From NCBI GenBank assembly GCA_905182185.1, contig CAJJAP010000007.1, positions 17,461 through 81,460 of the forward strand: DNA of 64,000 nucleotides. The letters run 5' to 3'. This DNA comes from an uncultured Candidatus Poseidoniales archaeon. Its GTDB lineage: Archaea > Thermoplasmatota > Poseidoniia > Poseidoniales > Poseidoniaceae. Below are positions 8,752 through 23,679 of the stretch, in pieces. The notes beneath the pieces were generated by a model. It searched no databases, was not told the DNA's origin, and saw only the letters and a program-made list of their open reading frames with translations. Made by a program: the position numbers and the translations under genes. Position 1 is the stretch's first letter, and every line of letters begins with the position of its first letter.

Positions 8752-8921
8752 CCTAATTATGACTTATTGTGTTGTGGTGCGATAGGTCATCGCGTGAACG
8801 ATTGAACTTATTTTATCCTGTAAATCCTCTGAAATAACCCTATCAGCATCTCGATCAATTTGGTAATATGATTCCACATGGAATGAGAAGCCATATCAAG
8901 TAGTGAATAAGCCCCCAAATA

Positions 8922-10340: not shown

Positions 10341-10362
10341 ATCGATAACAGGAGATTAGAAT

Positions 10363-10824
10363 ATGTCTGAGGCTGAAGAAAAGGAATCTTCTCATCAGGA
10401 ACAACTATCACTGCTTGATGAATCTAAATCTATGTGGAAGTTGATTTCTGGCTCTGCAGTACTTGCATCTATGTGTTGTCTTCCTTCGATAGTGTTGGTA
10501 CTATTCGGACTTGCTAGTGTCTCCTCTGCTGCAGCAATCTCCGACACTTTGTATTGGGGACTTGATGGATACCAATGGTTCAGACCAGCCTTATCGGCAT
10601 TATCTGTAATTCTGATAATCAGTGGATTGGTTCTATACTTCCGTTCCAAGGGAGTTTGCACTATTGAGCAAGCAAAGCGAGAGAGAAAGAGAATCATCAA
10701 TATTTCACTTACTGTTTTGATTTCATCCTACTTGCTATATCTTGTATTCAATTATGTAATTCTAACAGAGATCGGAATCGCTCTAGGATTACCTTGGCAA
10801 GAAAGTCGTTTTTGGACAAAATAA
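10363..10824 (+). CDS. Small membrane protein with a MerT-like CC motif in the first TM helix
   Basis: LASMCCLPSIVLVLFGLASVS resembles the MerT TM1 signature (ACCLGPLVLIALGFSGAW). 3-4 predicted helices. Only a single Cys in the loop where MerT has a Cys pair. Confidence 0.4.
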   Translation: MSEAEEKESSHQEQLSLLDESKSMWKLISGSAVLASMCCLPSIVLVLFGLASVSSAAAISDTLYWGLDGYQWFRPALSALSVILIISGLVLYFRSKGVCTIEQAKRERKRIINISLTVLISSYLLYLVFNYVILTEIGIALGLPWQESRFWTK

Positions 10825-10827
10825 GAT

Positions 10828-11622
10828 TCAACTATTATTCCTTGTTGAATTGCATCCGATTTGCCATTCTGTCCCAGATGCCATCGCTTCTCTCGTAGCA
10901 TCTAGGAGGTCATCTTCTTCACTACGTATTTGGCCATCACCTCTTAACCAAGAAAGACTAATATGAACCTCTTCATGTAGCCAATTTCTCAATTGCAAAA
11001 TTGATTTTTCAATTGAAATATCACATATCTCTTCCCCAATAGGAATTTCAATTTCACGTGGATTTAATTTCATCCCCATACGCATTGTTTTTTGCACAGA
11101 TTCTTTAGCGGTCCAACTACGAATTGCCATTTCAGGGTTGTTGCGAATCTGTTGTAATTCATCACCGCTTGCCATTAGATCTAATGCATTATCGGCAATT
11201 CCTCTAGCACTTGGTTCAGCATCGATTCCAACGGTCCAACCGGGTGCTATCAGCGCAACATAGGCCCAACCATTACCGTGGCCAATGGAGATACTAGGCA
11301 ATGGCTCATTTCTCCAGATGCCATGAATAAATTCTAAACTCGGCGCTCGAAGTTCATCGCGCCTAACTTCAATCTCATCGATTGAATTGATGCCCCATTG
11401 AATTAGTGAATAATGCAGTAACCAACGTCCGCTCAGATGCTCCATCCGCCTCTTATCAGTTACAAAGGTGGATACTTCATCAGCATCTGCAAGCATTACA
11501 TCCTCTACAGCAAAATCTTGGACCTCACACCTATAGCAGGTAATAACTGGAGCTTCTGGCAATTGAGGTGGTGTTAGTACCTCTACCTTCGGCTGCATAA
11601 TTAGTCCACTCACCCGAATCAA
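10828..11622 (-). CDS. 4'-phosphopantetheinyl transferase (Sfp/PfaE type)
   Basis: PPTase motif 2 GIDAEP and motif 3 WTAKESVQK (WxxKEAxxK). Lies 18 nt downstream of the PKS, on the same strand. Confidence 0.8.
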   Translation of the reverse strand: MIRVSGLIMQPKVEVLTPPQLPEAPVITCYRCEVQDFAVEDVMLADADEVSTFVTDKRRMEHLSGRWLLHYSLIQWGINSIDEIEVRRDELRAPSLEFIHGIWRNEPLPSISIGHGNGWAYVALIAPGWTVGIDAEPSARGIADNALDLMASGDELQQIRNNPEMAIRSWTAKESVQKTMRMGMKLNPREIEIPIGEEICDISIEKSILQLRNWLHEEVHISLSWLRGDGQIRSEEDDLLDATREAMASGTEWQIGCNSTRNNS

Positions 11623-11640
11623 TTCAAACCATGCCTTAGA

Positions 11641-14600
11641 TTATCTTGGCAAAGTGAATTGTTGGTATTCAGGGACTGGAGCCATCGCCTTCAGACGTAG
11701 CCCTTTCAATGCTAGTACAGGTGCATCATCATCACCTACGATAACGACATCATGAACAGTAACCCCTGCATCTTCAACTGCGGTACGAATACTACGCAAT
11801 CTCAAAACCTCATCCCTTTCAGGCACCCGCAGATTACAAGTCCAGTCAATACCCACAGGTAGGGAAGAGAAGTTTTCACTTTCCATTGCAACCAAACCGG
11901 CGTTTTGGAATCCTGCTTCAATTAACATTGGTAGTGCCTCTAAGAGAATAGACTCTCCTTGTGCTTCTATCGCCCATTGGTCACTTTGCGGCAATTGATG
12001 TCGCATCAATGCAATCCCATCTACACCAGGCGTAGAATCATTGCCAATGCCTCTAATAATCCCACCATGCGATTGGAATCTAGGTCCATGGAAATATCGA
12101 AGATAGATGAATGCTGGCGTATGTATTAATTGACCCATAGGCGGCGTTCCAATCGCTGGAATCATTGCAATCTCTGCTTCAAGGAATGGGCAAATATCAT
12201 CACAGTCTTCAACTAAGCGAACTGTCGCTTGATGATGTTCTCTTTCGCCGAATACTTCACCCTTTGAATTGGTTAAATCACTTACTAATCGACATTTTAC
12301 CCAAGAGATTTGGCCTTCTTGTTTATCCAAGAGAGATTCTACTCTAACGGTCATTTCACCTTTTAGTAATTTTACCGGCAATCCGAATTTAACATCTTCG
12401 AACCCTGCTAAACTGGTCTGAGGACGTAATAATAACGCATTTTCTGCAAACATTTCCAGTGCCATTACACCTGGGTGGTATGGGACGCCTTCTATTGCAT
12501 GGTCGATTAAGAATGGATGATCTGCTGCACTTAGAGTAGATTGTGTAGTCAAGGTTTGACCCTCGTCTATCCTGTTGACTTTGTCAATGAATGGGAATCG
12601 AGTAGGGTCAGCTATTAATGCCGCCATTTTTGCAGGAAGACGCAAAGGTGCATCTCTAAAAACATCAAAGCGATTCATTATTCCAAGACTACCACAACCG
12701 ATGACTCTTCTTTTACCACCAGCTAGTGCCTCATCAACAAAGATAGAAACTCCTTCTTCAACCGATAGTGTATCGATACCTGCTGCTTCAAAGACCGCTT
12801 CTATTGAACCTCTTGTGGCCATTCCAACATCTCTCCAGCCTGTCCAACCAATTGCAACCGCACGGCAGGTTCCACTTGCTGTCAAGCGCGACATTTCACT
12901 ATCCAGAACACAATTGGCTGCTGCATAATCTGTTTGACCACCGTTTCCAAAGCGGCCTGCTACACTGGTAAAACAGCAAGCGAAGTTAGGATTATCACTA
13001 CCACTTGCGTGGACTGCGCCCAATAATGCCCGCCATCCATCAACCTTGACACGAACTACATTGTTGAAAATTTGATGTGATTTATCATTGACTAATTTGG
13101 AGTCTTCAAGGCCTGCACCATGAAGAATACCGGTTATTTTTCTTCCGAGGTTGGCACCGAGTTCTGCCAAACCTTCTGCATCTGTCACATTGACCGAGCA
13201 ATACTGAGCAGAGTTTCCTGTGCTAGTAATCTGCTGAATTGTATTGTAAATATCAAGTGAGCGAGTATATTTTTGCCACTCCTTATTCCACTCTACCATT
13301 GTGACCTTTCCTTCTTCACTGGCATCGGTCATAGTTTGACGCAATGCCATTTTCTCATCAGTGAGTTGTTGTTGTGACCAGCCAATCCACGATTGACACT
13401 CTTCTATTAGGCTTGAGCGTCCTAGTAAAACAAAGTGTGCGCCTGCATCTGGACTCGCCTTAGAAACGCCGATTATAGATGCTGCTGTAACTCCAGAACC
13501 GCCACCGGATACTATCCAAGTATCCGCATTGGTTAGTGGTTCTCTTGGTGATTCTAAATCTTCAGCAAATGCGACTAGAGTCCACCTTCTCAAATCTCGA
13601 TCGATTGCAATTTCAATATCGCCACCAAGTTCAAACAAATCCTCGTCAATAATTTGAGCTGCTTGGTCTGCTTGCAAGATTAATTCAGGATGTAGGTCAA
13701 AGGCTCTACAACGCAAGTGTGGTTGTTCAAAGGAATATGACTTGGTAACGCCTGTTGCCGCACTTTGTAGTGAATTGAATCTCTCTCCACGATTGCCATG
13801 GCGGCCATCCAGTGCGGTGATTGAAGCAACTATTCCAGTCGATTGACTTGCAAGTTTACTATCCAACCCTTTCAACAATGAAAAGAAACCATGCGCTGAC
13901 ATAGCAATTTGGCTCGAAGGATAAGCGTCATCTGACCAAGATTCACTAGCCAATTTCAAGGAGGCCATATGGAGGACTGCTGTAATATTTTGTTGCTTTA
14001 ACTGCTCACATACTTCCTCAAGATGCTGGGAATTTTCTGGGTCGCATCTGTAAACAGTTCGACCCGATTCTTCTTGGGTTGACATATCTCTGATTGCAGA
14101 TTCAAAACCGATCAATACCGTTTTCAATCCACGTTGCTCCATTCTTTGAGCGAATGCTTCGGAGATCCCCCAGCCATCAACTGTGATGACAACTGTACCA
14201 TCAAGAGAAATCGGTTGGCTAGTCCCTAGGCATTCTTCAATTTCTATTTGCCATCTTCGCGTTGTTGAAACAATATCGCTGTTGGTTTGTTGTATTGCCG
14301 CCGTCTCCTCTACCTGTTGCGGTTGTGGCTGAGCCTCACCAACCACTGATTCAACAACACTATCGCCACCTACCATCTTGGTGATGTAGGCGCTAAAGTG
14401 ATTCAAAGTCGGGTGGTCGCTGAGTACGAAATCATCGTCGACTGGTAGTGAGAAAATTTCTCTAATATCCCCCATTATCTCTGCTTGCTTGACCGTATCA
14501 ATCCCCAATTCACCTTCTAGGTCTTGGTCCATTTCAATGAAATCTGCAGGATAGCCGGTGTGTTTGACTACGACTTCAACTAATTTCTCCACAATATCGG

Positions 14601-17600
14601 CTGAAGCGGCTGAAGAAGGAACTGAGGCTGGTACTGGAGATGGACTCGATTTCGCTGCGGCTTTCTGCTCTACAGGTTGTGGAGTTGGAACTGTAATTGG
14701 GGTTTGTGCAACCACTTCACCACCCATCATCCGAGAGATATAGGCAATCATGTGATTCAGAGTTGGATAATCAGATAAGACAAAGTCATCGTCGACTGGT
14801 AGGGAAAACTTCTCACGGATATCACCCATAATCTCTGCTTGCTTAACAGTGTCAATTCCCAATTCACCTTCGAGGTCTTGGTCTAATTCAATAAAATCAG
14901 CAGGATAACCAGTATGAGCGACTACAACTTCTACAACAAGTGGAGTTATTTCCGATGTTTCTAAATCAGTAGCTAATTTAACAGCCGATTGTGGCTTACT
15001 AATTTCGACTGGAGCTTGTGGTTGTGCTAGCGTCTCTATTGCTGCTTCTGCTGCTGGTGCGGCAATTACTGTTGCGGCACCTCCTGTCATTTTGTTGATG
15101 TATCCGATCATATGATTCAATGTTGGATAATCCGAAAGAACAAACTCGTCGTCAACTGGTAGGGAAAACTTTTCTCGAATATCGCCCATAATCTCTGCTT
15201 GCTTGACCGTATCAATGCCCAATTCACCCTCTAGGTCTTGGTCTAATTCAACAAAGTCTGCTGGATATCCTGTGTGATTAACCACTACTTCGATGACAGT
15301 GGTTACAATATCACCTGATACGGTTGCAGCGGCTACTGGAGCCGGTTTGTTTTGTTGAACGACTGGCTTTGAAACTGGCATTGATGCTACTGCAGGCGCT
15401 GAGATTGAAACTGGTACTGGATCTACGGCATTTACAACCACCGGAGCAGGGTTTGGTTTTCCTTCAAAATCGGCGGTAATAGGCCAACTTTCTCCTTGTA
15501 CACCGCCGTGCAATTTATCATCAGCATCAACATAGCAGACCAATTTATTTTGTAATACTCGGAATACTACGTCATCAGTCCCCGCTAATTCTCTATTCCA
15601 GGCAAGGAATTTGGCACCATCGATTCTCTCCCCCACAAACGGAGTTCTCTTTACTAGTGAAAGGGCTATTTGTGAGCCAAATCCTGCTGCAAAGCGAAGT
15701 CCATAGCGCAGATTTGGATATTCTCCACCTGTGGATAGATTCAAGTCTCCTAATTCCGGATCTTTTTCCTTGTGATTAGCGATAGGAGGAATTCTTCCTG
15801 TTTTCATCCCGTATAGCATGCTAGCATCTTCAATTCCAACTGCCATCGGATGTCCAGTGAACCCTTTAGTATTGGAAATTACAAGGGAATCCGTACTATC
15901 ACCGAATGTATCGCGTAGTGCTTTAACCTCGGATTGAGCGCTTCCTCCTCGGGCCGGAGTGAATGTTTCATGGCTAAAGAAGGCTGTATCAGATGCGAAT
16001 TCATGCCGGTCTATTCCCCAGCGCTTTTCCATATCTCCAACGAAATTATTGACAACTCCTGCGACGTGTTCAACATCTAAGCGAGTTCCATGGAAGGCTG
16101 AGTTTGCAGTGGTTGAACCTAATAATTCTGCAATAGGTTGAACTCCACGCTTAGCCGCTTCAGAACTTCTCTCCACTACGAAAGCAGCAGCACCCATCCC
16201 TAAGATGAGCCCATTGCGTCGACGGTCAAACGGTAATGCTGTTTCTTCTACTACATTGCCGGTTGCTGCTGCACCTGATGCTGCGAATCCTGCTCCGACC
16301 CATTCCCACATATCATCGCCGGTAACGTCGTCACCAGAGATGATTACCACTCGGTCTACGCGGTCTGCTGCAAGCCAATCTTCGGCAACACCAAACGCTG
16401 CAGTAGCTGATGCGCAGGCGAGATTGATTGTTGTATTTGGCCCACGAATGCCAGTATACTGTGCAAATTGTGAATGACCCATATTGAGGGTTTGGAATAG
16501 ATATCTGCGGTCAAATTGTCCGTCACCATCATCGCCATTATTCTTGGCATGTTTCTTGGCCATCTGCATTCCAGGGAAACAAGAGGAGAATACAATTCCA
16601 GTTCGGTCTCTCTGCACTTGAGGGATTTGCCAACTTCTGATCAACCTAAGTCCACCTTTGCCAACTTGCTCAACAGGAGTTAGTGGTATGGCAGCATCAC
16701 GGAGTGCTAGTAATCCGGCTGCTACGGCCAACTGTGTGGAAATATCCCATGCCAAAACTACCTTCGGGTCTATACCAAATTCTTCTGAGATGTCAAAGGC
16801 AGATTTGAGACCCGCTAATTGTGGAATATCACTGAATTCAGTTGCCTTTTCCATATTGACTGAACCATCTCTCCCTTTGATTAGACGAACTAAGTTCTTA
16901 TCGAGCAGTCTTTGTTTGTATTCATCTGAAACTTCGCTAATACAAGTTTCACCACGGACAAGGCGTTCAAATGTATCCTCGTCGAATACTTTCTTTCCAC
17001 CAGGAAGGCCAAGAGAAACACCTGTGATCACATATGGGTCTGCTCTACGGTTGGCCATGGTATCATTTCCAGTAGCGACTACTGTAGTTCCTTGCTGTGA
17101 AATATTGGCACTAGGCAATTTAGTTAAATTGGTCTTGGCAGTCCATTGAGAAGGGACTGATGCAATCCAATGCGCTATATCCTCTACAGTTTGTGCACTG
17201 CTGACATCCACATCCGCCATGGTTTGGCATTCACTGGCAATTGTTTGTAGCAGATTAGCAATGGCAGAATCTGCAAGACCAAGCCCAAGACGGAGATTGA
17301 CCATCCCATTACAGAACCTTGCTGGATAACCGCAAAGTGCTGATAGACGGTCTCCAAGGTAAGCATTCTTTGCTTCAGTAGCAATTTGCTCAGGGTCTTT
17401 TTGGGTGGAAACTGTTGTGGTTTGTGCTACTGTTGTAACGGTAGGTTGAGCCGCACCACTAGGAAGTGGGCGGGCTGCTGTACGCAAAGATTCCAAAGAA
17501 GAACTTGTTTGCGAGGTCGAAATTATTGCTGCTTGATGTGCTTCAATCGGTCCAGCACGGAACGCTTCTGTCAATACAGGAGAATCTCCAGTTGGCCACT

Positions 17601-20532
17601 GCGGCATCCTACCCGCAAGAGCAAGCATTCCTAGAGCGGAAATAAATGAGGCAATTCCTCCCTGTTTTGGATGGTTAGTCATTATTGGTAGCGATGGTTG
17701 GTCCTCAAGAATTTGAGTTGCAAACATACTCAATGCTCGCTTTGGCCCGACTTCAATGAAGACTCGTGCACCTGCTGAATACATTGTTTGAATTTGAGTT
17801 GTCCACTCGACCGCAGATGCCATTTGAGGTGCTAATTGAGTAAGTATTGATTGCTTAGCATCTCCTTCTCCGGACATTGGATAAAATTGGCCATCTACAT
17901 TTGCTGTTATTGGAATCGCTGGCCATCGTATTTCTAGCCCTTCTAAGAACCGGCGTAGCGGTTCATTGGCCGGTGCTACAATCTTGGAATGGAAGGCGTG
18001 ACTTGTTGCTAGGGTCACGGATTGGAACCCACGATTTTCAAATTCAGCCATAGCCGCCTTTACCGGTTCGGTTTCACCAGCGATGACCGTCATCTTTGGC
18101 GAGTTCTTATTGGCTGCGATGACATATCCATCGACCTCTTCAATAATTGCTGCAACATCATCGTATGGTGCGCTAACACTAGCCATCAAACCTTTGTCAA
18201 TTACTTCAACTGCGCCCATTTCAGTTCCTCTCGCTGCAGCTGCACGCAGTGCACCATCCATATCGAGAATCCCCGCTGCCATCAGTGCCGCATATTCTCC
18301 CAAAGAGTGTCCAGCAACCATATCTGGTTTGTGGCCATGGTCATTCAGCGCCTTCTCAATTGCCAGATCTGCAGTTAACATTGCAGGTTGAGTATATTCT
18401 GTTTGCTTCAATTTATGTTCCGCTTCAAGCAATTGTTGTTTATTCAATCCCGAACGAAGAATGAATGATGACAAACTTTCACCGTTCAAGACCTCGGTCA
18501 TGGTAACATCGGATTGCTTCCAAACCTCTTGCACAGAAGTATATCTCTGCCATAGGTCGTGTGTCATCCCAACATACTGACTTCCTTGGCCAGGATACAT
18601 GTGGGCAACCTTGGCTTGTGCTGGTAGCGCAGCATCATCGGTTAGTAGAATTCCTTGCGCTTGTAAGAATCCCCATTTCTCTTTATCATCCATCGCTTTT
18701 ACTGCAAGGGCACAACGTTTGTTGAATTCAGCCCACGAGGTTGCAATAAGTGCCATCCTAATCTTATCTGAAGATGAATAATCTCCACTGATTGATTCGA
18801 GCGCTTGTGAAAGACGAAGTCCTCTTGGGTCCTCATCGAAATTAGGACCTTGGAAAGAAATAGATTCTATTTGTTGCTTAATTTGGCCAATATCGCTGCC
18901 AGAAAGCAATAACATTCCACCTTCAATTTGCTTTAATTGTTGATGTGTCATTGAAGGTGTTGCCGTGGAATCCAATATAGAGGCTGCAACCGCCTCGCCT
19001 GTTTGTTTATTTTGCGAACCATCCAGAGGCTGAGAATATGCATCCCATCTCAGTTGCCACTGCTGTGCCAGTGGTGCGTGGAAATCCGGTTCATACCCTT
19101 CGAGAGCGACGTGAAAATTAGTGCCACCAAAACCGAATGCGGAAACTCCGGCTCGGCGCGGATTTGACTCTGGCCTAGGCCATTCCATTGCTTTGGTTGG
19201 TACGAAAAATGGTATGCTTCCCCAATCAACTGTTGGATTTGGATTTTCGAATCCTGCACTAGGAGGAATTGTTCTGTGGTGAAGTGCAAGAATGGATTTC
19301 ATAATTCCTGCGATTCCTGCTGCTGCCTTTAGATGCCCAATCTGTGATTTTATTGAACCGACTGCGATATGGTCGCCACCATCAAATCCAGTCCAAAGAC
19401 GTGATAGCGTTGATAATTCTGTAGCATCTCCAACTTTGGTAGAGGTCCCGTGAGCTTCAACCAACTGAACGCTGGATGCATCATATCCTGCTTGGTTGTA
19501 AGCACGTGCCATCGCTTGTACTTGCCCTCTTTGACTTGGAGCGGTAATACCCTTGCCTCGGCCATCTGATGAGCCACCGATTCCCCTGATTACCGCTTTA
19601 ATTTCATCACCATCACGGATTGCATCTCCTAGGCGCTTGAGAAGTAATACACCTGCGCCTTCACCCATTACGAATCCATTCGCCTTAGCATCAAAAGGAG
19701 TGGAATGTGTAGCGGATAATGCGCCAATGGCACTGAACTTAGCAAATGTAGCAGGATCCATTGTTCGGTCACTCGCTCCTGCTAGCATTGTATCAACCTG
19801 TCTTGTTTGCAGCAATCTACAAGCATCCAATACGGCTGCCATAGACGATGCACAGGCAGCATCCATTGCGTGATTCGGACCTTGTAAATCCAATAGATTT
19901 GCGACCCTTCCAGATACCACGTTAGCCAATTCTCCTGGCATAGTATCTTCGTCAATCCTCGGGGTACCTTTTACCACATCTTCAATGAATGAATCCATGT
20001 TTGAATCTGGTAAGCCGTATTGCGATGCCAATTGTTTGGTGTGGTTAGACCAAACACGGATATTTGACATATTACGATTTTCTCCGCCTAAGGCATTTGC
20101 AAAAACTACTCCGGTTCTAACTCGGTCAATATCTTTTGATTCCCCATCAAAGCCAGCATCTTCTATTGCATCGGCTGATACTGCGACTGCCCATTGCTGG
20201 CATATGTCAATCTGAGGAAGAGTTCCAGGTGGTTGCCTCCATCTCCTCCAATCAAATTCATATCCAGTGACCAATGCACCGATTTTTGAATAGGTGAAGC
20301 CTTCCTCCACAGCCCCGGGACCACCTTGTCTCCAGAAATGATTTGAAGGGCCCGGCCATCTCCCTTCTGGAATTTGTTTGATGCTGACTTTAGCATCGAT
20401 AATATTCTGCCAAAATTGGCCCGCATTTTCTGCATCTGGCATTATAGCGGCTAGACCTATTACTGCAATCGGTTCAAAGGGCCCTTGCTCAAGACCTTCA
20501 CATTCCTTTCCATCTGCAGTAGTAAGAGACAT
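11641..20532 (-). CDS. Type I polyketide / PUFA-synthase-like megasynthase (PfaA-like), domain order KS-AT-KS-ACPx3-KR-DH
   Basis: KS1: DAACASS (Cys aa 227), EAHGTSTKVGD, SIKSQIGH. AT: GQGSQYVGM and GHSLGEY. KS2: NLACASATAA (Cys aa 1373), AFHGT, NTKGFTGH. Three near-identical ACP repeats (GELGIDTVKQAEIMG). KR: GGGSGV Rossmann fold, YAAANCVLD. DH: HAIEGVPYHP (HxxxGxxxxP). Confidence 0.95.
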   Translation of the reverse strand: MSLTTADGKECEGLEQGPFEPIAVIGLAAIMPDAENAGQFWQNIIDAKVSIKQIPEGRWPGPSNHFWRQGGPGAVEEGFTYSKIGALVTGYEFDWRRWRQPPGTLPQIDICQQWAVAVSADAIEDAGFDGESKDIDRVRTGVVFANALGGENRNMSNIRVWSNHTKQLASQYGLPDSNMDSFIEDVVKGTPRIDEDTMPGELANVVSGRVANLLDLQGPNHAMDAACASSMAAVLDACRLLQTRQVDTMLAGASDRTMDPATFAKFSAIGALSATHSTPFDAKANGFVMGEGAGVLLLKRLGDAIRDGDEIKAVIRGIGGSSDGRGKGITAPSQRGQVQAMARAYNQAGYDASSVQLVEAHGTSTKVGDATELSTLSRLWTGFDGGDHIAVGSIKSQIGHLKAAAGIAGIMKSILALHHRTIPPSAGFENPNPTVDWGSIPFFVPTKAMEWPRPESNPRRAGVSAFGFGGTNFHVALEGYEPDFHAPLAQQWQLRWDAYSQPLDGSQNKQTGEAVAASILDSTATPSMTHQQLKQIEGGMLLLSGSDIGQIKQQIESISFQGPNFDEDPRGLRLSQALESISGDYSSSDKIRMALIATSWAEFNKRCALAVKAMDDKEKWGFLQAQGILLTDDAALPAQAKVAHMYPGQGSQYVGMTHDLWQRYTSVQEVWKQSDVTMTEVLNGESLSSFILRSGLNKQQLLEAEHKLKQTEYTQPAMLTADLAIEKALNDHGHKPDMVAGHSLGEYAALMAAGILDMDGALRAAAARGTEMGAVEVIDKGLMASVSAPYDDVAAIIEEVDGYVIAANKNSPKMTVIAGETEPVKAAMAEFENRGFQSVTLATSHAFHSKIVAPANEPLRRFLEGLEIRWPAIPITANVDGQFYPMSGEGDAKQSILTQLAPQMASAVEWTTQIQTMYSAGARVFIEVGPKRALSMFATQILEDQPSLPIMTNHPKQGGIASFISALGMLALAGRMPQWPTGDSPVLTEAFRAGPIEAHQAAIISTSQTSSSLESLRTAARPLPSGAAQPTVTTVAQTTTVSTQKDPEQIATEAKNAYLGDRLSALCGYPARFCNGMVNLRLGLGLADSAIANLLQTIASECQTMADVDVSSAQTVEDIAHWIASVPSQWTAKTNLTKLPSANISQQGTTVVATGNDTMANRRADPYVITGVSLGLPGGKKVFDEDTFERLVRGETCISEVSDEYKQRLLDKNLVRLIKGRDGSVNMEKATEFSDIPQLAGLKSAFDISEEFGIDPKVVLAWDISTQLAVAAGLLALRDAAIPLTPVEQVGKGGLRLIRSWQIPQVQRDRTGIVFSSCFPGMQMAKKHAKNNGDDGDGQFDRRYLFQTLNMGHSQFAQYTGIRGPNTTINLACASATAAFGVAEDWLAADRVDRVVIISGDDVTGDDMWEWVGAGFAASGAAATGNVVEETALPFDRRRNGLILGMGAAAFVVERSSEAAKRGVQPIAELLGSTTANSAFHGTRLDVEHVAGVVNNFVGDMEKRWGIDRHEFASDTAFFSHETFTPARGGSAQSEVKALRDTFGDSTDSLVISNTKGFTGHPMAVGIEDASMLYGMKTGRIPPIANHKEKDPELGDLNLSTGGEYPNLRYGLRFAAGFGSQIALSLVKRTPFVGERIDGAKFLAWNRELAGTDDVVFRVLQNKLVCYVDADDKLHGGVQGESWPITADFEGKPNPAPVVVNAVDPVPVSISAPAVASMPVSKPVVQQNKPAPVAAATVSGDIVTTVIEVVVNHTGYPADFVELDQDLEGELGIDTVKQAEIMGDIREKFSLPVDDEFVLSDYPTLNHMIGYINKMTGGAATVIAAPAAEAAIETLAQPQAPVEISKPQSAVKLATDLETSEITPLVVEVVVAHTGYPADFIELDQDLEGELGIDTVKQAEIMGDIREKFSLPVDDDFVLSDYPTLNHMIAYISRMMGGEVVAQTPITVPTPQPVEQKAAAKSSPSPVPASVPSSAASADIVEKLVEVVVKHTGYPADFIEMDQDLEGELGIDTVKQAEIMGDIREIFSLPVDDDFVLSDHPTLNHFSAYITKMVGGDSVVESVVGEAQPQPQQVEETAAIQQTNSDIVSTTRRWQIEIEECLGTSQPISLDGTVVITVDGWGISEAFAQRMEQRGLKTVLIGFESAIRDMSTQEESGRTVYRCDPENSQHLEEVCEQLKQQNITAVLHMASLKLASESWSDDAYPSSQIAMSAHGFFSLLKGLDSKLASQSTGIVASITALDGRHGNRGERFNSLQSAATGVTKSYSFEQPHLRCRAFDLHPELILQADQAAQIIDEDLFELGGDIEIAIDRDLRRWTLVAFAEDLESPREPLTNADTWIVSGGGSGVTAASIIGVSKASPDAGAHFVLLGRSSLIEECQSWIGWSQQQLTDEKMALRQTMTDASEEGKVTMVEWNKEWQKYTRSLDIYNTIQQITSTGNSAQYCSVNVTDAEGLAELGANLGRKITGILHGAGLEDSKLVNDKSHQIFNNVVRVKVDGWRALLGAVHASGSDNPNFACCFTSVAGRFGNGGQTDYAAANCVLDSEMSRLTASGTCRAVAIGWTGWRDVGMATRGSIEAVFEAAGIDTLSVEEGVSIFVDEALAGGKRRVIGCGSLGIMNRFDVFRDAPLRLPAKMAALIADPTRFPFIDKVNRIDEGQTLTTQSTLSAADHPFLIDHAIEGVPYHPGVMALEMFAENALLLRPQTSLAGFEDVKFGLPVKLLKGEMTVRVESLLDKQEGQISWVKCRLVSDLTNSKGEVFGEREHHQATVRLVEDCDDICPFLEAEIAMIPAIGTPPMGQLIHTPAFIYLRYFHGPRFQSHGGIIRGIGNDSTPGVDGIALMRHQLPQSDQWAIEAQGESILLEALPMLIEAGFQNAGLVAMESENFSSLPVGIDWTCNLRVPERDEVLRLRSIRTAVEDAGVTVHDVVIVGDDDAPVLALKGLRLKAMAPVPEYQQFTLPR
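11644..12585 (-). other. PKS domain: PKS-type dehydratase (approximate)
   Basis: HPFLIDHAIEGVPYHPG (HxxxGxxxxP hot-dog motif) at aa ~2678. Confidence 0.7.
12733..14235 (-). other. PKS domain: ketoreductase (approximate)
   Basis: VSGGGSGVTAAS NADPH fold; catalytic YAAAN motif (Tyr aa 2536). Confidence 0.7.
14374..15300 (-). other. PKS domains: three tandem ACP repeats, each with Thr at the Ser attachment position (approximate)
   Basis: Repeat HTGYPADF(V/I)E(L/M)DQDLEGELGIDTVKQAEIMGDIRE(K/I)FSLPVDD(D/E)FVLSD(Y/H)PTLNH. Thr codon acg confirmed on the DNA for all three copies (e.g. 15208-15210). The repeats are also near-identical at DNA level. Confidence 0.8.
15643..17040 (-). other. PKS domain: second ketosynthase retaining the Cys-His-His triad (approximate)
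   Basis: NLACASATAAFG, AFHGTRLD, ISNTKGFTGHPMAVG. It is not a CLF-type inactive KS. Confidence 0.75.
17683..18615 (-). other. PKS domain: acyltransferase (approximate)
   Basis: GQGSQYVGM; active site GHSLGEY (Ser aa 743); AFHS. Confidence 0.85.
19093..20475 (-). other. PKS domain: ketosynthase 1 (approximate)
   Basis: Cys codon at 19852-19854 (DAACASS). Both catalytic His motifs present. Confidence 0.85.
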
Positions 20533-20543
20533 AGAAACACCAC

Positions 20544-21338
20544 CTAGTTGTCCATAATACTTTGTGGAACCATCGTAATTGAGTAGCCAGCATCAACATA
20601 GATACATTGGCCGGTCACACCGCTTGAAAGAGGACTTGCTAACCAAATTGCTGCACCAGCAACATCGGATTGTGTCACATTGCGGCGCAAAGGCGCATTG
20701 GCCTCTACGTGGTCTAGGATTTTATCAAAGCCAGGAATTCCTCCAGCAGCTAGAGTTGGAATCGGGCCAGATGAAATTGCATTGATTCTGTGACCATCTG
20801 GGCCTAAGTGGCAAGCGAGTTCACGAGTCCAACATTCCAATGCGGCTTTGGCCATTGACATTATTCCATAATTTGGAACGAAACGATTTGCTGCTGCATA
20901 TGTTAGAGTAATTGTTGATGAATTTTCATTCAGATAAGGCAATGCAAATTTCAAACATCTTTGCAATGAATTCGCAGATATTGTCATCGCTGTGTTAATA
21001 TCTTGATCTTCAACGAATAATATCGGTCTGTCAAAACATGAACGAGGAGCGAAACCGATCGCATGAATCAAAATATCCGCCTTCAGGCCCGGATTCTCGG
21101 CGGAAAATGCATCGAAAAATTCTTGGGTATCTGCATCGGTTGCAACATCGAGAGGATAGAAACCTGCTATCTCTGGCAATTTATCCTTTAATTGGAAAAC
21201 ACGGCTCATAAATCTCTTCTGATAACCGAGATACAGCGTGACGCCTGACGCTGCTAAATGTTGGCATATCGCCCAAGCGATTGAATCCTCACTTGCTACA
21301 CCAAAAACAAATGCGGTTTTTCCTTGTAGTCCGAGCAT
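20544..21338 (-). CDS. FabI-like enoyl-[acyl-carrier-protein] reductase (SDR); candidate trans-acting ER for the PKS
   Basis: N-terminal GKTAFVFGVASEDSIAWAI (FabI SIAxGIA-type fold). Catalytic YGIMSMAKAALE (Yx6K). Lies 11 nt upstream of the PKS on the same strand. Confidence 0.8.
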   Translation of the reverse strand: MLGLQGKTAFVFGVASEDSIAWAICQHLAASGVTLYLGYQKRFMSRVFQLKDKLPEIAGFYPLDVATDADTQEFFDAFSAENPGLKADILIHAIGFAPRSCFDRPILFVEDQDINTAMTISANSLQRCLKFALPYLNENSSTITLTYAAANRFVPNYGIMSMAKAALECWTRELACHLGPDGHRINAISSGPIPTLAAGGIPGFDKILDHVEANAPLRRNVTQSDVAGAAIWLASPLSSGVTGQCIYVDAGYSITMVPQSIMDN

Positions 21339-21563
21339 AACAACACCTGTACATTGGGTAGGTGTTGCCCGCTACACCAGCCCTTTGACTGTTACCATTG
21401 ATTAGCACCACAATATGGAGATTTTAATACCTTTACAAATAGCCCGACGCACCCCGAATCATATGCCAAATAAGCAGTGCAATTGATGGTTTTCAACTAC
21501 ACAAGGTGTTAGCGCGGAAAATTTGATTGTATCGAGGTTACCGCGCAACTGCGAACTAAACAT

Positions 21564-22652
21564 TCACAGGTCATTTAGGAATGAATCTAAATCATCTTCT
21601 TCATCATTTAAATCGTCGAACATATCATCAAATTCATCTAAATCTTCAACAACTGGTTTAGTCACTTCTTCTATCTCTGGGAGATCGATAGCATGTACCG
21701 TTGCATCGTCAGAAGATCTCCTACTGATTACCTTTAGGCCCAACACTAGAATGAATATCCCGAGAATACCAGCGCCAATAATAGCGCCATATTTCTTCAG
21801 ATCCTCGCTACTAAGTTCATCAAGTCCACCCAATCCAGAGATTTCATTAGGTTTTTCTACTACCAGAGTAATTAATATTTCACTGAACTCCGCATTATCA
21901 TCATTGGCACTTTCTGCACGTATTATCATCTGAACTCTTATCTCTTCGGTGACTTTTGAAGGCGCACTTATTGTCAGGTCACGAATTGAAGAAACTCCTC
22001 CTGCGGCTACATCTTCAGCAACAAATGAGCCCAATGGGAAACTAAAACCACTTTCAATTAGTTCTGCCTCATTGGCAATGGATACTCTAATTTTATCTTC
22101 ATCATTACCATAGTTGGAAAATTGGAATGATATGACTCTCTGTTCATCCAATTCCAAAGTTCTAGCGCTTTTGTCGCTCATCTCTAATTCGACCATCCCA
22201 TAAGTAGAAACGGTGAAATCTCCTTCATATGAAGCGTTTACATTTAGTTGATCCATTGGGAAGATGCCACCCCATGTATCAACTTGAGCGTTAAGTGTAA
22301 ATGAATAACTGGTATCTGCCGATAATTTTGTCGGACCTGAAAAAGTGATGGTGAATTCCTCTTCCTCACCCGCTTCTATTTCGAACGAATCTTCTGACAA
22401 AATCATATCTATATTATTCGCATCCCACTCTTTTTCAACTGAAATTGTCTCCGCCAATGATGAAGGATTACTTACTATACAAATCAATTCCACCGGCTCG
22501 TAGTATGATGGGTGAACTTCCATTACCGGGTCAGTACCGCAATCAATCTCAACGCTAGGTCCAGTTGGCACATCTTGAGCCGAAGCCATTAAAGACAATG
22601 CTGGAAGCATAAAAAATGCCAGTGCAAAAGTTAGAATCTGACCCTTCCGCAT
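21564..22652 (-). CDS. Secreted single-pass membrane protein with an acidic C-terminal tail, hypothetical
   Basis: The ORF-track start at 22778 is GTG and overlaps the upstream TatD gene. The internal ATG at 22652 gives a classic signal peptide (MRKGQILTFALAFFMLPALSLMASAQD). C-terminal TM helix, then a D/E-rich tail. Confidence 0.5.
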   Translation of the reverse strand: MRKGQILTFALAFFMLPALSLMASAQDVPTGPSVEIDCGTDPVMEVHPSYYEPVELICIVSNPSSLAETISVEKEWDANNIDMILSEDSFEIEAGEEEEFTITFSGPTKLSADTSYSFTLNAQVDTWGGIFPMDQLNVNASYEGDFTVSTYGMVELEMSDKSARTLELDEQRVISFQFSNYGNDEDKIRVSIANEAELIESGFSFPLGSFVAEDVAAGGVSSIRDLTISAPSKVTEEIRVQMIIRAESANDDNAEFSEILITLVVEKPNEISGLGGLDELSSEDLKKYGAIIGAGILGIFILVLGLKVISRRSSDDATVHAIDLPEIEEVTKPVVEDLDEFDDMFDDLNDEEDDLDSFLNDL

Positions 22653-22720
22653 GCCTCTCACCGGTTGTGGGTTGAAGCACTCTTTCATCAATGTAGTGGG
22701 TAACAGAGCCCCAAAAACAC

Positions 22721-23626
22721 CTATGCACGCATAGTATCCCCATATAGCAGATTTGGCAAATCTTGGTGAGTTTTCCACATTATTTCCTCATCGACTCCAA
22801 GTTCCAACAGTTGTTTTGTTCTTTTTGGAACTGTTTTCGGACCCAATACTGCACCTGGGCGTTTCGGGTCATCCATATAATCGGTCTCTAGTAAGAATCC
22901 ATGACTTGATTTTGTTATAGTTTCCATCAATTCCTCAATAGCTCCTTTGCCTATCAGCACACTAGGAGTGATTCCTTTGGTAATTTCTGCATCGATATTG
23001 GCTGGAGCATAGTGCCTTACTATTTTCTTGCAATCCATTCCAGCCTTTATCGCCATTTGTGACAAATCTGAATATGTAGATTCCAATTCACCTTCAACGT
23101 GTAACTGCAAGGTAATACCTTCTTGACTAGCCAGATGCATTGTTTCCGATAATAACTGATTGGACATATCCCACACCTGCTTTGATACTGGCCAGTGTGG
23201 CCGCCCTACTTCTCCAATAGCGTGCGCTTTTCCTTCATGGACAAACTCTAATGCAGCATCAATGCTATCACGATAATTATTGGCAGCATTTTCGATTCCT
23301 TGTTCGTTTTCACTTTTAATTGCATTATCTAATTGATGCGCAAATGCAGCAGGATGAGGGCCCAATACAACTCTAACTCCTAATCCGACTTCCTTACGCA
23401 CTGCTTCGGCCATCGAAATAGTATCTGCATATGTGTCGCTATGGCCTTTTTTAGAAGTAGGTGGTGATGCGAAATCTGGACAATGAACTAGAACAAGATC
23501 AGTGCCCCCGAATCGTTCAAAATCACGAGCGGCCTCAAGAAATAAACCTTTACGGTTTAGATGGAAATGGTTGTCGGTAACCGGTCCATCCCATAATTTG
23601 GATAATTCACTCATCGCGTTCACCAA
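22721..23626 (-). CDS. TatD-family metal-dependent hydrolase
   Basis: N-terminal DNHFHL motif and further His/Asp/Glu ligands typical of the TatD/amidohydrolase TIM barrel. 301 aa. Confidence 0.7.
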   Translation of the reverse strand: MVNAMSELSKLWDGPVTDNHFHLNRKGLFLEAARDFERFGGTDLVLVHCPDFASPPTSKKGHSDTYADTISMAEAVRKEVGLGVRVVLGPHPAAFAHQLDNAIKSENEQGIENAANNYRDSIDAALEFVHEGKAHAIGEVGRPHWPVSKQVWDMSNQLLSETMHLASQEGITLQLHVEGELESTYSDLSQMAIKAGMDCKKIVRHYAPANIDAEITKGITPSVLIGKGAIEELMETITKSSHGFLLETDYMDDPKRPGAVLGPKTVPKRTKQLLELGVDEEIMWKTHQDLPNLLYGDTMRA

Positions 23627-23679
23627 TTATTGCCACGGAGTTATGGCTATTCTGTCTTGTGCTAAAACCAACGTTACAA

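What the first reader, a model, noticed from the sequence alone, without database searches (positions are those of the whole stretch)
10828..21338. Three-gene operon FabI-like ER / PfaA-like type I PKS / PPTase in an apparently archaeal genome
Archaea build membranes from isoprenoids and generally lack ACP-dependent fatty-acid/polyketide synthases. Here a 2963-aa multidomain KS/AT/ACP/KR/DH megasynthase is flanked 11 nt upstream by a FabI-type enoyl reductase and 18 nt downstream by a Sfp/PfaE-type PPTase, all on one strand. That is a self-contained module for making and activating a reduced long-chain acyl or polyketide product. The host context (Orc1/Cdc6, TBP-like, HTH_10, tRNA features) looks archaeal. 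Either this is a horizontally acquired bacterial-type lipid/polyketide pathway in an archaeon (possibly supplying fatty acyl chains), or the contig is not archaeal. Both outcomes are informative. No PfaB/PfaC/PfaD partners are visible in the window, so this would be a minimal variant, not a canonical pfa cluster.
Basis: partly seen in the sequence, partly recalled or inferred. Interest (0 to 1): 0.85.

Follow-up and report, generated by a model that had tools for sequence, protein, structure and literature searches.

The report
Archaeal fatty-acid megasynthase with threonine carriers
An abundant ocean archaeon (Marine Group II) carries a conserved three-gene set encoding a complete bacterial-style fatty-acid/polyketide factory, and its carrier domains have threonine where every characterised carrier protein I know of has the serine that holds the swinging arm.

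Summary
Three co-directional minus-strand genes, 11 and 18 nt apart, encode a FabI-type enoyl reductase, a 2963-aa megasynthase and an Sfp-type PPTase. The contig is archaeal (Orc1/Cdc6, TBP, HTH_10, archaeal PPAT-DPCK fusion). All close homologs come from Ca. Poseidoniales/Poseidoniaceae (Marine Group II) MAGs. The operon is not a stray insert: 145 species-level genome stretches encode it, ER is adjacent in 49/50 loci and PPTase in 62/62, and composition matches the host.

Two features were missed. (1) It is not a plain PfaA. A second, catalytically intact FabF-like KS sits between AT and the ACPs: KS1-AT-linker-KS2-ACPx3-psiKR/KR-DH. (2) All tandem ACPs carry Thr at the phosphopantetheine-attachment position (372/372 repeats in 120 MGII homologs).

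Both features define a large unnamed family (>1000 clusters at 50% identity) in bacteria and other archaea, including Thermoplasmatota and Heimdallarchaeota MAGs. Family members often have a fused PPTase and a fused FabK/PfaD-type ER.

Best reading: an anciently acquired, iterative, fully reducing type I fatty-acyl synthase. This bears on whether MGII builds fatty-acid lipids. The product, the release step and the modification of Thr are inferred, not shown.

The parts
20544..21338 (-). FabI-type enoyl-ACP reductase (trans-acting ER), 264 aa
   Evidence: Pfam adh_short_C2 1.7e-68. Best PDB match is T. thermophilus FabI 1ulu, 5.2e-55, with the Tyr-x9-Tyr-x6-Lys catalytic residues aligned. NCBIfam FabI models are the top hits but all fall below their equivalog cut-offs. 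It lies directly upstream of the synthase in 49/50 testable loci, median identity 87%.
11641..20532 (-). 2963-aa megasynthase: KS1-AT-linker(psiACP?)-KS2-ACPx3(Thr)-psiKR-KR-DH
   Evidence: Full-length homologs at 55-100% identity occur in 78 Poseidoniales loci.
19087..20475 (-). KS1 (aa ~20-482), type I PKS/PfaA-like ketosynthase
   Evidence: Pfam ketoacyl-synt, Ketoacyl-synt_C and KAsynt_C_assoc. Cys227, His361 and His400 are invariant in 40 homologs. Best PDB matches are type I PKS KS-AT didomains: 7zma 4.5e-115 and CurL.
17683..18612 (-). AT (aa ~641-950), malonyl-type acyltransferase
   Evidence: Acyl_transf_1 1.8e-33; NCBIfam FabD 3.6e-57. The GHSLG and HAFH motifs are invariant.
17128..17400 (-). 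Linker segment with a possible vestigial ACP ('LGLGLADS')
   Evidence: No Pfam hit. The Ser motif is kept in only 17/120 homologs. It gives a weak in-register BLASTP match (E 0.052) to the ACP that some family members have between AT and KS2. Inconclusive.
15613..17040 (-). KS2 (aa ~1165-1640), FabF-like second ketosynthase
   Evidence: Pfam ketoacyl-synt 8.5e-15 when scanned alone. Best PDB match is FabF 2gqd, 1.3e-24, with Cys, His and His aligned. Cys1373, His1521 and His1561 are invariant, and the region is among the most conserved in the protein.
15088..15315 (-). ACP1; Thr1775 (codon 15208..15210, ACG) at the phosphopantetheine site
   Evidence: PP-binding. Alignment to the PigH and S. 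coelicolor ACPs puts the Thr on the Ser position. Codon.
14728..14955 (-). ACP2; Thr1895 (codon 14848..14850, ACT)
14374..14601 (-). ACP3; Thr2013 (codon 14494..14496, ACG)
13573..14250 (-). Pseudo-KR / structural SDR subdomain (aa ~2095-2320)
   Evidence: Weak adh_short, adh_short_C2 and Beta-ketacyl_N hits. No intact catalytic motif was identified.
12673..13530 (-). KR (aa ~2335-2620)
   Evidence: Pfam KR 6.6e-24. The GGGSGVTA motif and Lys2496, Ser2523, Tyr2536 and Asn2540 are invariant.
11644..12615 (-). DH (aa 2640-2963), PKS-type double-hotdog dehydratase
   Evidence: PKS_DH_N 1.8e-08. HxxxGxxxxP with His2678 and ExxxQ with Glu2872 are conserved. The AF2 model has pLDDT 85.3, and the top Foldseek hits are CurF, MlnB and MAS-like DH domains at about 1e-14.
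10828..11622 (-). Sfp-type 4'-phosphopantetheinyl transferase (256-264 aa; alternative ATG start at 11598)
   Evidence: Pfam ACPS 31.1 bits above the cut-off of 25. The 'GIDAE' and 'WTAKESVQK' motifs have D126, E128, K165, E166 and K170 invariant. AF2 pLDDT 88.9; the top 33 PDB matches are all Sfp-type PPTases at 15-18% identity. It lies directly downstream of the synthase in 62/62 loci. It is homologous (25-33% identity) to the PPTase domains fused to the C-termini of family relatives.

Best explanation
The region is a fixed three-gene operon of Marine Group II (Ca. Poseidoniaceae) archaea. It encodes a self-contained, iterative, fully reducing type I fatty-acyl (FAS-like PKS) synthase.

Proposed mechanism:
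1. The Sfp-type PPTase converts the three tandem carrier domains to their holo form. Because the only conserved hydroxyl residue at the attachment position is Thr1775/1895/2013, the arm is inferred to be attached to threonine.
2. The malonyl-specific AT loads malonyl units from malonyl-CoA.
3. Two catalytically intact ketosynthases elongate the chain: the PKS-type KS1 and the FabF-type KS2. They probably divide priming from elongation, or cover different chain-length ranges.
4. KR, DH and the trans-acting FabI reduce each beta-keto group completely, giving a saturated long-chain acyl-ACP.
5. No thioesterase is encoded. Release is therefore inferred to occur either by direct acyl transfer (for example to glycerol-3-phosphate by the PlsC-type acyltransferases others have reported in MGII) or through the AT domain.

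The operon is the 'split' form of a large, unnamed megasynthase family (KS1-AT-KS2-ACPn(Thr)-KR-DH, with or without fused PPTase and fused FabK/PfaD-type ER). It was most likely acquired once from bacteria, early in the Poseidoniales lineage.

Shown: gene order, domain identity, intact catalytic motifs, conservation, family membership and host identity. Inferred: the product, iterativity, the roles of the two KS domains, the release route, and phosphopantetheinylation of Thr.
For: Domains and motifs:
- All six FAS activities are present with invariant catalytic residues in 40 sampled homologs.
- The DH and PPTase folds are confirmed by confident models.

Host:
- Archaeal markers are in the window.
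- All 78 related loci come from Poseidoniales MAGs, and 145 species-level stretches encode a relative.

Fixation in the lineage:
- ER is adjacent in 49/50 loci, PPTase in 62/62, and KS2 is present wherever that part of the gene is on the contig.
- The same TatD-FabI-synthase-PPTase...M28 layout is kept at 47% identity (L079).
- GC3 and tetranucleotide usage are host-like.

Family:
- 1084 representatives score below 1e-30. The dominant order is KS1-AT-KS2-ACPn-KR-DH(-PPT).
- Some relatives fuse an NMO/PfaD-type ER at the N-terminus. A reductase partner is therefore a recurrent requirement.
- One bacterial member sits next to a biotin ligase, a 1941-aa single-chain acetyl-CoA carboxylase and BioY. 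That is a primary-FAS context (L080).

Thr carriers:
- 372/372 repeats in MGII are Thr.
- The site is T in 401 repeats and S in 21 across the family. One protein mixes both, and Ser-type members nest inside Thr-type clades.
- The Thr aligns with the phosphopantetheinyl Ser of solved ACPs.
- The three Thr codons differ, and the repeats are only about 70% identical at the DNA level.
- A PPTase always accompanies the synthase, either fused or adjacent.

Literature:
- MGII lacks G1P dehydrogenase but has G3P dehydrogenase (PMC6461757).
- MGII has PlsC-like genes and a 'putative fatty-acid pathway' (PMC6962369, PMC7852524).
Against: - No product, transcript or lipid evidence was available.
- No thioesterase or other release enzyme lies in or next to the operon. 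The flanking ORFs are membrane or surface proteins.
- Thr has, to my knowledge, never been shown to carry phosphopantetheine, and Ser-to-Thr ACP mutants are generally reported as unmodifiable (from memory, not tested here).
- In two bacterial relatives the upstream partner is an acyl-CoA-dehydrogenase-family protein. Such enzymes often oxidise rather than reduce, so not all family members need make saturated chains.
- antiSMASH-type surveys file such loci as T1PKS or HglE-KS secondary-metabolite clusters (PMC10434046, a retracted paper).
- FabI and PfaA NCBIfam scores are below the curated equivalog/subfamily cut-offs.
- No complete acetyl-CoA carboxylase is visible in the window. There is only a lone biotin carboxylase at 36304..37644.
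Confidence: 0.68

Rival explanations
1. The operon makes a specialised lipid or polyketide and not bulk membrane fatty acids. Examples would be a long-chain hydroxy or keto alkyl chain as in heterocyst glycolipids, an alkyl precursor for resorcinols or pyrones as with Azotobacter ArsA/ArsD, or a hydrocarbon precursor. The enzymology would be the same, but the fate of the product would differ.
For: - The closest curated model is PfaA, a secondary-lipid synthase.
- Tandem ACPs are typical of PUFA and HglE-type synthases (from established knowledge).
- No thioesterase or acyltransferase is in the operon.
- MGII retains the archaeal isoprenoid ether-lipid genes GGGPS and DGGGPS (PMC6962369), so fatty acids need not be its membrane lipids.
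Against: - The operon is universal and single-copy across Poseidoniaceae loci with very high conservation (ER 87% median identity). It sits among housekeeping genes, not tailoring genes.
- A bacterial relative sits next to acetyl-CoA carboxylase, a biotin ligase and BioY.
- No type III PKS, glycosyltransferase tailoring set or Ole genes are adjacent in the window.
Confidence: 0.24
2. It is a minimal PUFA synthase (a true PfaA orthologue) that makes polyunsaturated fatty acids.
For: The best NCBIfam hit is TIGR02813 omega_3_PfaA at 887 bits. It also shares the KS-AT-tandem ACP-KR-DH order.
Against: - The score is below the curated cut-off of 1010.
- No PfaC (KS-CLF with FabA-type DH/isomerase), PfaB or PfaD is in the window or in the syntenic loci.
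- An extra KS2 is present.
- The ER is FabI-type, not FMN-dependent PfaD-type.
- Without a FabA-like isomerising dehydratase, no known route to cis double bonds exists (established PUFA-synthase knowledge).
Confidence: 0.03
3. The Thr-substituted carrier domains cannot be modified. The megasynthase would then be inactive, or would work on CoA-bound or other non-ACP substrates, and the PPTase would serve another target.
For: Ser is the universal attachment residue in characterised carrier proteins, and Ser-to-Thr ACP variants are reported as unmodified (from memory). Archaea have an ACP-independent route to fatty acids (bioRxiv 10.1101/2024.07.05.601840).
Against: - Thr is strictly conserved in 372/372 MGII repeats and in about 95% of family repeats. 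Copy number varies from 2 to 8, and repeats diverged to about 70% at the DNA level keep the motif.
- Ser and Thr interchange within clades and even within one protein.
- A PPTase is always fused or adjacent.
- All partner domains keep their catalytic residues. Purifying selection on a dead carrier array is implausible.
Confidence: 0.04
4. The contig is bacterial or chimeric (mis-binned), so the cluster is an ordinary bacterial PKS.
For: One related locus, L040, is labelled 'Rhodobiaceae bacterium'.
Against: - Archaeal replication and transcription genes lie on both sides of the operon within the same 64-kb window.
- 77/78 loci are labelled archaeal, several on contigs of 0.2-1.5 Mb.
- Synteny with TatD, the TBP-like gene and the M28 peptidase is conserved.
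- Composition is host-like.
Confidence: 0.01

Closest known systems
PUFA synthase subunit PfaA (TIGR02813) / Schizochytrium OrfA
   Same: A large iterative type I synthase with N-terminal KS-AT, tandem ACPs with an 'LGID-x-(I/V)K' core, then KR and a PKS-type DH. It needs a trans ER and an Sfp-type PPTase (PfaE). It is the best-scoring curated family.
   Different: - The score is below the family cut-off.
- An extra FabF-like KS2 sits between AT and the ACPs.
- The ACP site is Thr, not Ser.
- The ER is FabI-type, not PfaD-type.
- There are no PfaB or PfaC partners, so no FabA-type isomerising dehydratase and no chain-length factor.
Enediyne iterative PKS (PKSE: SgcE, CalE8, DynE8; KS-AT-ACP-KR-DH-PPTase)
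   Same: A PUFA-synthase-related iterative type I enzyme with a self-activating PPTase. Many relatives of the MGII enzyme fuse the PPTase at the C-terminus in the same position.
   Different: PKSE has one KS, one ACP (Ser) and no ER partner, makes a conjugated polyene, and works with a hot-dog thioesterase (from established knowledge). None of these applies here.
Heterocyst glycolipid synthase HglE and the antiSMASH 'hglE-KS' class
   Same: A PfaA-like KS-AT-ACP synthase that makes a long reduced alkyl chain. antiSMASH-type surveys have reported hglE-KS and T1PKS regions in Poseidoniaceae (PMC10434046, retracted).
   Different: Hgl systems are multi-protein (HglB/C/D/E/G) with glycosyltransferase tailoring. 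No such partners are present here. The antiSMASH rule itself could not be run.
Fully reducing type I FAS / MAS-like PKS (animal FAS, mycocerosic acid synthase)
   Same: It carries out the complete KS-AT-DH-ER-KR-ACP cycle iteratively to give saturated chains. The DH model matches the MAS-like DH, and KS1-AT matches the MAS KS-AT.
   Different: Those enzymes carry an MDR-type ER in cis, one KS and one ACP (Ser), and usually a TE or a dedicated transferase. Here the ER is a separate SDR (FabI), there are two KS domains and three ACPs, and there is no TE.
ACP-independent archaeal fatty acid synthase complex (Sulfolobus acidocaldarius; bioRxiv 10.1101/2024.07.05.601840)
   Same: A proposed route to de novo fatty acids in an archaeon.
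   Different: That system is CoA-based and uses thiolase, DUF35, SDR, MaoC and MDR enzymes. The paper states that archaea lack FAS I and FAS II and nearly always lack ACP and AcpS. The MGII operon is the opposite case: an ACP-dependent type I machine with its own PPTase.

Membership tests
PfaA (polyketide-type PUFA synthase, NCBIfam TIGR02813) | Whole-protein score at or above the curated cut-off (1010.1 bits) | tested here: not met
   887.2 bits.
PfaA (polyketide-type PUFA synthase, NCBIfam TIGR02813) | Domain order KS-MAT-ACPn-KR-DH with a single KS | tested here: not met
   A second KS with an intact Cys-His-His triad lies between AT and the ACPs.
PfaA (polyketide-type PUFA synthase, NCBIfam TIGR02813) | Clustered partners PfaB (AT), PfaC (KS-CLF-2xFabA-DH) and PfaD (FMN ER) | tested here: not met
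   None was found among the scanned window ORFs or in the syntenic locus L079.
PfaA (polyketide-type PUFA synthase, NCBIfam TIGR02813) | Tandem ACPs with a phosphopantetheinyl Ser in the LGIDS motif | tested here: not met
   Tandem ACPs are present (3), but the motif reads LGIDT in all copies.
FabI enoyl-ACP reductase | SDR fold of the adh_short_C2 type with the Tyr-x6-Lys catalytic pair and close similarity to characterised FabI | tested here: met
   PF13561 1.7e-68. PDB 1ulu 5.2e-55 with the catalytic residues aligned.
FabI enoyl-ACP reductase | NCBIfam equivalog cut-off | tested here: not met
   Best hit is NF005615 at 222 bits against a cut-off of 391. This makes it a divergent FabI-family member, not an equivalog.
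Sfp-type (group II) 4'-phosphopantetheinyl transferase | ACPS superfamily domain above the Pfam gathering score, a pseudo-dimeric two-lobe fold, and the (I/V)G(I/V)D and W/F-x-x-KE-x-x-K motifs | tested here: met
   31.1 bits against a cut-off of 25. D126, E128, K165, E166 and K170 are invariant. The model has pLDDT 88.9 and its top 33 PDB hits are all Sfp-type PPTases.
Sfp-type (group II) 4'-phosphopantetheinyl transferase | Transfers phosphopantetheine from CoA to the carrier-domain hydroxyl residue | not testable with these tools
   Needs biochemistry. The acceptor here would be Thr.
Fully reducing iterative type I FAS/PKS | KS, AT, ACP, KR, DH and ER activities all present with intact catalytic residues | tested here: met
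   The ER is supplied in trans.
Fully reducing iterative type I FAS/PKS | Dedicated chain-release function (TE or transferase) | tested here: not met
   No TE domain was found in the synthase, and the flanking ORFs are membrane or surface proteins.
Unnamed KS1-AT-KS2-ACPn(Thr)-KR-DH megasynthase family (defined here) | A FabF-like KS2 between AT and the tandem ACPs, a Thr-type 'DLGIDTVKQAE' ACP core, and an associated PPTase (fused or adjacent) | tested here: met
   The window protein was the query. 1084 representatives score below 1e-30 and share the architecture. The site is T in 401 repeats and S in 21.
Archaeal (Ca. Poseidoniales) chromosome | Archaeal information-processing genes on the same contig, and nearest homologs from that lineage | tested here: met
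   Orc1/Cdc6, TBP, HTH_10 and a DUF359 fusion.

The most novel reading that the evidence does not exclude
The carrier domains of this megasynthase, and of a large and so far unnamed family spread through bacteria, Marine Group II and other Thermoplasmatota, and at least one Heimdallarchaeota MAG, carry their phosphopantetheine arm on threonine rather than serine. The arm would be installed by a co-evolved, highly divergent Sfp-type PPTase. The family would be a third kind of complete type I fatty acid synthase. It would give the most abundant surface-ocean archaea ACP-dependent de novo fatty-acid synthesis, and hence possibly ester or mixed membranes.
Probability: 0.45. Interest if true: 0.88.

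Novelty: new variant of a known kind. Interest (0 to 1): 0.78.

Why it matters
- **Lipid divide.** A 2024 study still states that archaea encode neither FAS I nor FAS II and almost never ACP or AcpS (bioRxiv 10.1101/2024.07.05.601840). Marine Group II archaea are uncultured, lack G1P dehydrogenase, have G3P dehydrogenase and PlsC-like genes, and their membrane lipids are unknown (PMC6461757, PMC6962369). A lineage-wide, intact, ACP-dependent type I synthase with its own reductase and activating enzyme is the missing acyl-chain source for the 'mixed or bacterial-like membrane' hypothesis. It is only three genes, so it can be tested by heterologous expression.
- **Carrier-protein enzymology.** A family in which about 95% of carrier domains have Thr at the prosthetic-group site would, if the Thr is modified, overturn the rule that phosphopantetheine is attached only to serine. 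It would also define a PPTase specificity useful for orthogonal labelling.
- **Eukaryogenesis.** Relatives in Heimdallarchaeota MAGs bear on how the archaeal ancestor of eukaryotes could have made fatty acids.

Tried and rejected
- **Exact-sequence contig lookup.** The lookup for the window megasynthase found nothing. Host identity came instead from homolog names and genome contigs titles.
  - MGII/Poseidoniales combined with PKS, FAS, ketoacyl, hglE or PUFA terms gave only general statements (PMC6962369, PMC7852524) and a retracted antiSMASH survey (PMC10434046).
  - Villanueva et al. 2017 is not held, so I could not check whether they noted this gene.
  - A search for Thr-modified carrier proteins found nothing relevant.
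  - A search for the motif strings themselves (LGIDTVK and related) returned 0 papers.
- **Release enzyme among the flanking ORFs.** orf153 (10363..10824) is a small Cys-containing membrane protein. orf404 (21564..22778) is a signal/anchor surface protein. Both were rejected.
- **Linker Ser motif 'LGLGLADS' as the true carrier.** Rejected, because it is conserved in only 17/120 homologs. It may be a vestigial ACP (E 0.052).
- **DH sequence search against PDB.** No hits, so a structure model was used instead.
- **Compositional test for recent transfer.** No foreign signature.
- **The acyl-CoA-dehydrogenase gene upstream in two bacterial relatives as a third ER type.** Kept only as a possibility, because such enzymes often act oxidatively.
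- **MGIIb (Thalassarchaeaceae).** I could not establish whether it carries the operon. No hit bore that name, but most MAGs are labelled only to order or phylum.

Full report
**1. What is there**

Three ORFs lie head to tail on the minus strand:
- 20544..21338, 264 aa
- 11641..20532, 2963 aa
- 10828..11622, 264 aa from a TTG start. An in-frame ATG at 11598 gives the 256-aa form found verbatim in public data (P0121).

Pfam and NCBIfam call the first a FabI-family SDR (adh_short_C2, 1.7e-68). They call the second a KS / AT / PP-binding x3 / KR / PKS_DH_N protein whose best curated model is PfaA (TIGR02813, 887 bits, below the 1010 cut-off). They call the third an ACPS-superfamily PPTase (31.1 bits, cut-off 25).

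The FabI assignment is solid. It scores 5.2e-55 against Thermus FabI, with the Tyr/Tyr/Lys residues aligned.

I tested the two weakest calls by structure prediction:
- The PPTase model (pLDDT 88.9) matches only Sfp-type PPTases in its top 33 PDB hits, at 15-18% identity.
- The C-terminal 324 residues (pLDDT 85.3, pTM 0.88) match PKS double-hotdog dehydratases such as CurF, MlnB and MAS-like DH.

**2.

Reading the translation and scanning sub-regions shows a second ketosynthase at aa ~1165-1640, between the AT and the ACPs. It is FabF-like (best PDB match 2gqd, 1.3e-24) and keeps Cys1373, His1521 and His1561. It is as conserved as KS1.

The architecture is therefore KS1-AT-linker-KS2-ACP-ACP-ACP-psiKR-KR-DH. 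All of the following are invariant or nearly so in 40 sampled homologs:
- KS1: Cys227, His361, His400
- AT: GHSLG and the malonyl-type HAFH
- KR: GGGSGVTA, Lys2496, Ser2523, Tyr2536, Asn2540
- DH: His2678 in HxxxGxxxxP, and Glu2872-xxx-Gln

The linker contains an 'LGLGLADS' segment that may be a decayed ACP. It is not conserved (17/120 homologs), and its similarity to the ACP that some relatives have at that position is weak (E 0.052).

**3. The carrier domains have threonine at the attachment site**

All three ACPs read 'DLEGELGIDTVKQAEIM'. Alignment to solved ACPs (PigH, the S. coelicolor FAS ACP and others) puts this Thr exactly on the phosphopantetheinyl serine.

- In 120 MGII homologs at 68-100% identity, all 372 repeats have Thr.
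- The three Thr codons in the window are ACG, ACT and ACG. The repeats are only about 70% identical at the DNA level. Selection, not recent duplication, therefore keeps the Thr.
- No other hydroxyl residue in the domain is conserved across the wider family (inspection).

**4. Host and fixation**

The window carries these archaeal markers:
- Orc1/Cdc6 at 40771..42057
- a TBP-like gene at 23680..24228
- an HTH_10 regulator
- a cytidylyltransferase+DUF359 fusion, which I take to be archaeal-type PPAT plus dephospho-CoA kinase (from memory)

Named homologs are all 'Candidatus Poseidoniales / Poseidoniaceae / Poseidonia sp.'. In one genome per GTDB species, 145 stretches encode a relative. The 78 loci retrieved are Poseidoniales MAGs, except one labelled Rhodobiaceae, which is probably a binning error.

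Across those loci:
- FabI lies directly upstream in 49/50 testable cases. The fiftieth is an overlap artefact.
- The PPTase lies directly downstream in 62/62.
- KS2 is present wherever that part of the gene is on the contig.
- The neighbours (TatD, the TBP-like gene, the M28 peptidase) are also syntenic.

A relative at 47% identity on a 3.0-Mb contig keeps the same TatD-FabI-synthase-PPTase...M28 layout (L079).

GC3 is 0.336 against 0.31-0.37 for host genes. Codon usage and tetranucleotide usage are within the range of the rest of the window.

This is an old, fixed trait of the lineage. It is not contamination and not a recent island. No hit was labelled Thalassarchaeaceae (MGIIb), but most MAG labels stop at order or phylum, so the MGIIb question is open.

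**5. The wider family**

An exhaustive profile-free search with KS2-ACPx3 found 1084 representative proteins below 1e-30. Each stands for a cluster at 50% identity.

The top 150 are mostly 2800-4000 aa, with the same order KS1-AT-KS2-ACPn-KR-DH. Many add a C-terminal PPTase domain. Some add an N-terminal NMO/PfaD-type enoyl reductase, an extra KS or CLF-like domain, or extra ACPs.

The MGII stand-alone PPTase is homologous to these fused PPTase domains (25-33% identity). It has only about 130 detectable relatives of its own, all from MGII.

In this family the ACP site is T in 401 repeats and S in 21. One protein mixes S and T. In a crude KS2 distance tree, the Ser-type members nest inside Thr-type clades.

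Labelled members are a Polyangiaceae bacterium, a 'bacterium', two other Thermoplasmatota archaea and a Heimdallarchaeota MAG. All carry only generic PGAP names.

Contexts:
- A bacterial member with a fused NMO-type ER is followed by a biotin ligase, a 1941-aa single-chain acetyl-CoA carboxylase and BioY (L080).
- Two bacterial 'split' members have an acyl-CoA-dehydrogenase-family gene upstream and a PPTase downstream (L081 and L082).
- The Heimdallarchaeota member lies on a contig with an Arf/Ras-family GTPase, a carboxyltransferase and a KAS-III-like gene (L083).

In the KS2 tree the MGII clade is sister to the bacterial split-architecture clade. The other archaeal copies branch elsewhere, which suggests several independent transfers. 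This is neighbour-joining only, so it is indicative and no more.

**6. How it most likely works**

Shown: every activity of a fully reducing fatty-acid cycle is encoded with intact catalytic residues. A dedicated activating enzyme is co-transcribed. A reductase partner is a recurrent feature of the family (FabI here, fused FabK/PfaD-type elsewhere).

Inferred:
1. The PPTase loads phosphopantetheine onto the three Thr residues.
2. The AT loads malonyl units.
3. KS1 and KS2 share priming and elongation, or cover different chain-length windows. This is by analogy with the two KS activities of PUFA synthases and with FabB/FabF.
4. KR, DH and the trans-acting FabI fully reduce each round.
5. The saturated acyl chain leaves either by direct transfer to an acceptor or through the AT, since no thioesterase is present.

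The literature places this in context:
- MGII lacks G1P dehydrogenase and has G3P dehydrogenase (PMC6461757).
- MGII is reported to have PlsC-like genes and a 'putative fatty-acid pathway' (PMC6962369, PMC7852524).
- Intact polar GDGTs were not found in MGII-dominated water (PMC6962369).
- A recent study of archaeal fatty-acid synthesis still states that archaea lack FAS I and FAS II and nearly always lack ACP and AcpS (bioRxiv 10.1101/2024.07.05.601840).

**7. Rivals**

- **Specialised lipid.** The main rival is that the product is a specialised lipid (HglE-, ArsA- or PUFA-like secondary lipid) and not bulk membrane fatty acid. I give this 0.24. The enzymology would be the same.
- **True PUFA synthase.** Effectively excluded. 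It fails on the cut-off, the single-KS order, the partner genes, the ACP motif and the ER type.
- **Dead carrier array.** Contradicted by the conservation pattern and by S/T interchange.
- **Bacterial contig.** Excluded by the marker genes and the synteny.

**8. Novelty and score**

That MGII has 'bacterial-like fatty acid genes' is known in general terms, and antiSMASH-type surveys have flagged T1PKS/HglE-KS regions in Poseidoniaceae. I found no description of any of the following:
- the operon as a complete type I system
- the KS2-containing architecture
- the family as such
- the Thr carriers (the motif-string search returned 0 papers)

I could not read Villanueva et al. 2017. All statements about Thr never having been shown to carry phosphopantetheine rest on my own knowledge.

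I file it as a new variant of a known kind (a PUFA-synthase-related iterative type I FAS/PKS). The open possibility is that the Thr-linked prosthetic group is new chemistry.

Noticed in passing
L083 (P0265; NCBI GCA_026702845.1 contig JADCLS010000015.1), gene at 9001-18705: A Heimdallarchaeota MAG encodes a member of the same megasynthase family with Ser-type ACPs and a fused C-terminal PPTase. The contig also carries an Arf/Ras-family small GTPase, a carboxyltransferase and a KAS-III-like gene. This would be an ACP-dependent type I synthase in the closest archaeal relatives of eukaryotes.
   Followed up: partly
L080 (P0266; 3.16-Mb bacterial contig), 8001-27321: A 4019-aa NMO(ER)-KS-KS-AT-KS2-ACPx6(Thr)-KR-DH synthase is followed directly by a biotin-protein ligase, a 1941-aa single-chain BC-BCCP-CT carboxylase and BioY. 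This looks like a primary fatty-acid synthesis island built from giant fused enzymes.
   Followed up: partly
L081 7307-8968 and L082 7181-8836: Two bacterial 'split' family members have a 551-553-aa acyl-CoA-dehydrogenase-family gene directly upstream of the synthase, in the position FabI occupies in MGII. Whether it reduces or desaturates the chain is unknown.
   Followed up: no
window 45317..46336 (-): A 339-aa fusion of a cytidylyltransferase-like domain with DUF359. I take this to be archaeal-type phosphopantetheine adenylyltransferase plus dephospho-CoA kinase, the last two CoA-synthesis steps in one protein. CoA is the donor for the PPTase.
   Followed up: no
window 36304..37644 (-): A 446-aa biotin carboxylase (CPSase_L_D2, Biotin_carb_N and Biotin_carb_C) has no recognisable BCCP or carboxyltransferase gene next to it. 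The malonyl-CoA supply for the synthase is therefore not explained by this window.
   Followed up: partly
window 25042..30930 (-) and 2974..8595 (+): Two giant ORFs. The 1962-aa protein has no Pfam hit at all, yet is syntenic in 47 related loci at about 52% identity. The 1873-aa protein has only an S8 subtilase domain at aa 278-631.
   Followed up: no
window 44208..45303 (-): Two overlapping ORFs in different frames (163 aa and 225 aa) match the N-terminal and C-terminal halves of family-2 glycosyltransferases. This looks like a frameshifted or split GT2 gene, or a sequencing error.
   Followed up: no
window 51739..52605, 59411..60310, 61106..62542, 62552..63334: A set of beta-oxidation-type genes shares the contig with the synthase: two enoyl-CoA hydratases, a 3-hydroxyacyl-CoA dehydrogenase and an aldehyde dehydrogenase, plus a PaaA/PaaC-like protein at 56644..57813. 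Degradation and synthesis genes coexist here.
   Followed up: no
window 51027..51710 (+): A 227-aa protein with several CCHC zinc-knuckle matches, a domain type better known from eukaryotes and retroelements.
   Followed up: no
L040 (CALDQY010000187.1): A 20-kb contig that carries the full MGII-type operon (69% identity) is deposited in a MAG labelled 'uncultured Rhodobiaceae bacterium'. This is probably a binning error in the public record.
   Followed up: no
window 23680..24228 (-): The 182-aa 'TBP-like' protein matches only one TBP repeat (aa 98-165, 1.5e-09). It is syntenic with the operon in 50 loci. It may be a divergent or half-size TBP paralog.
   Followed up: no
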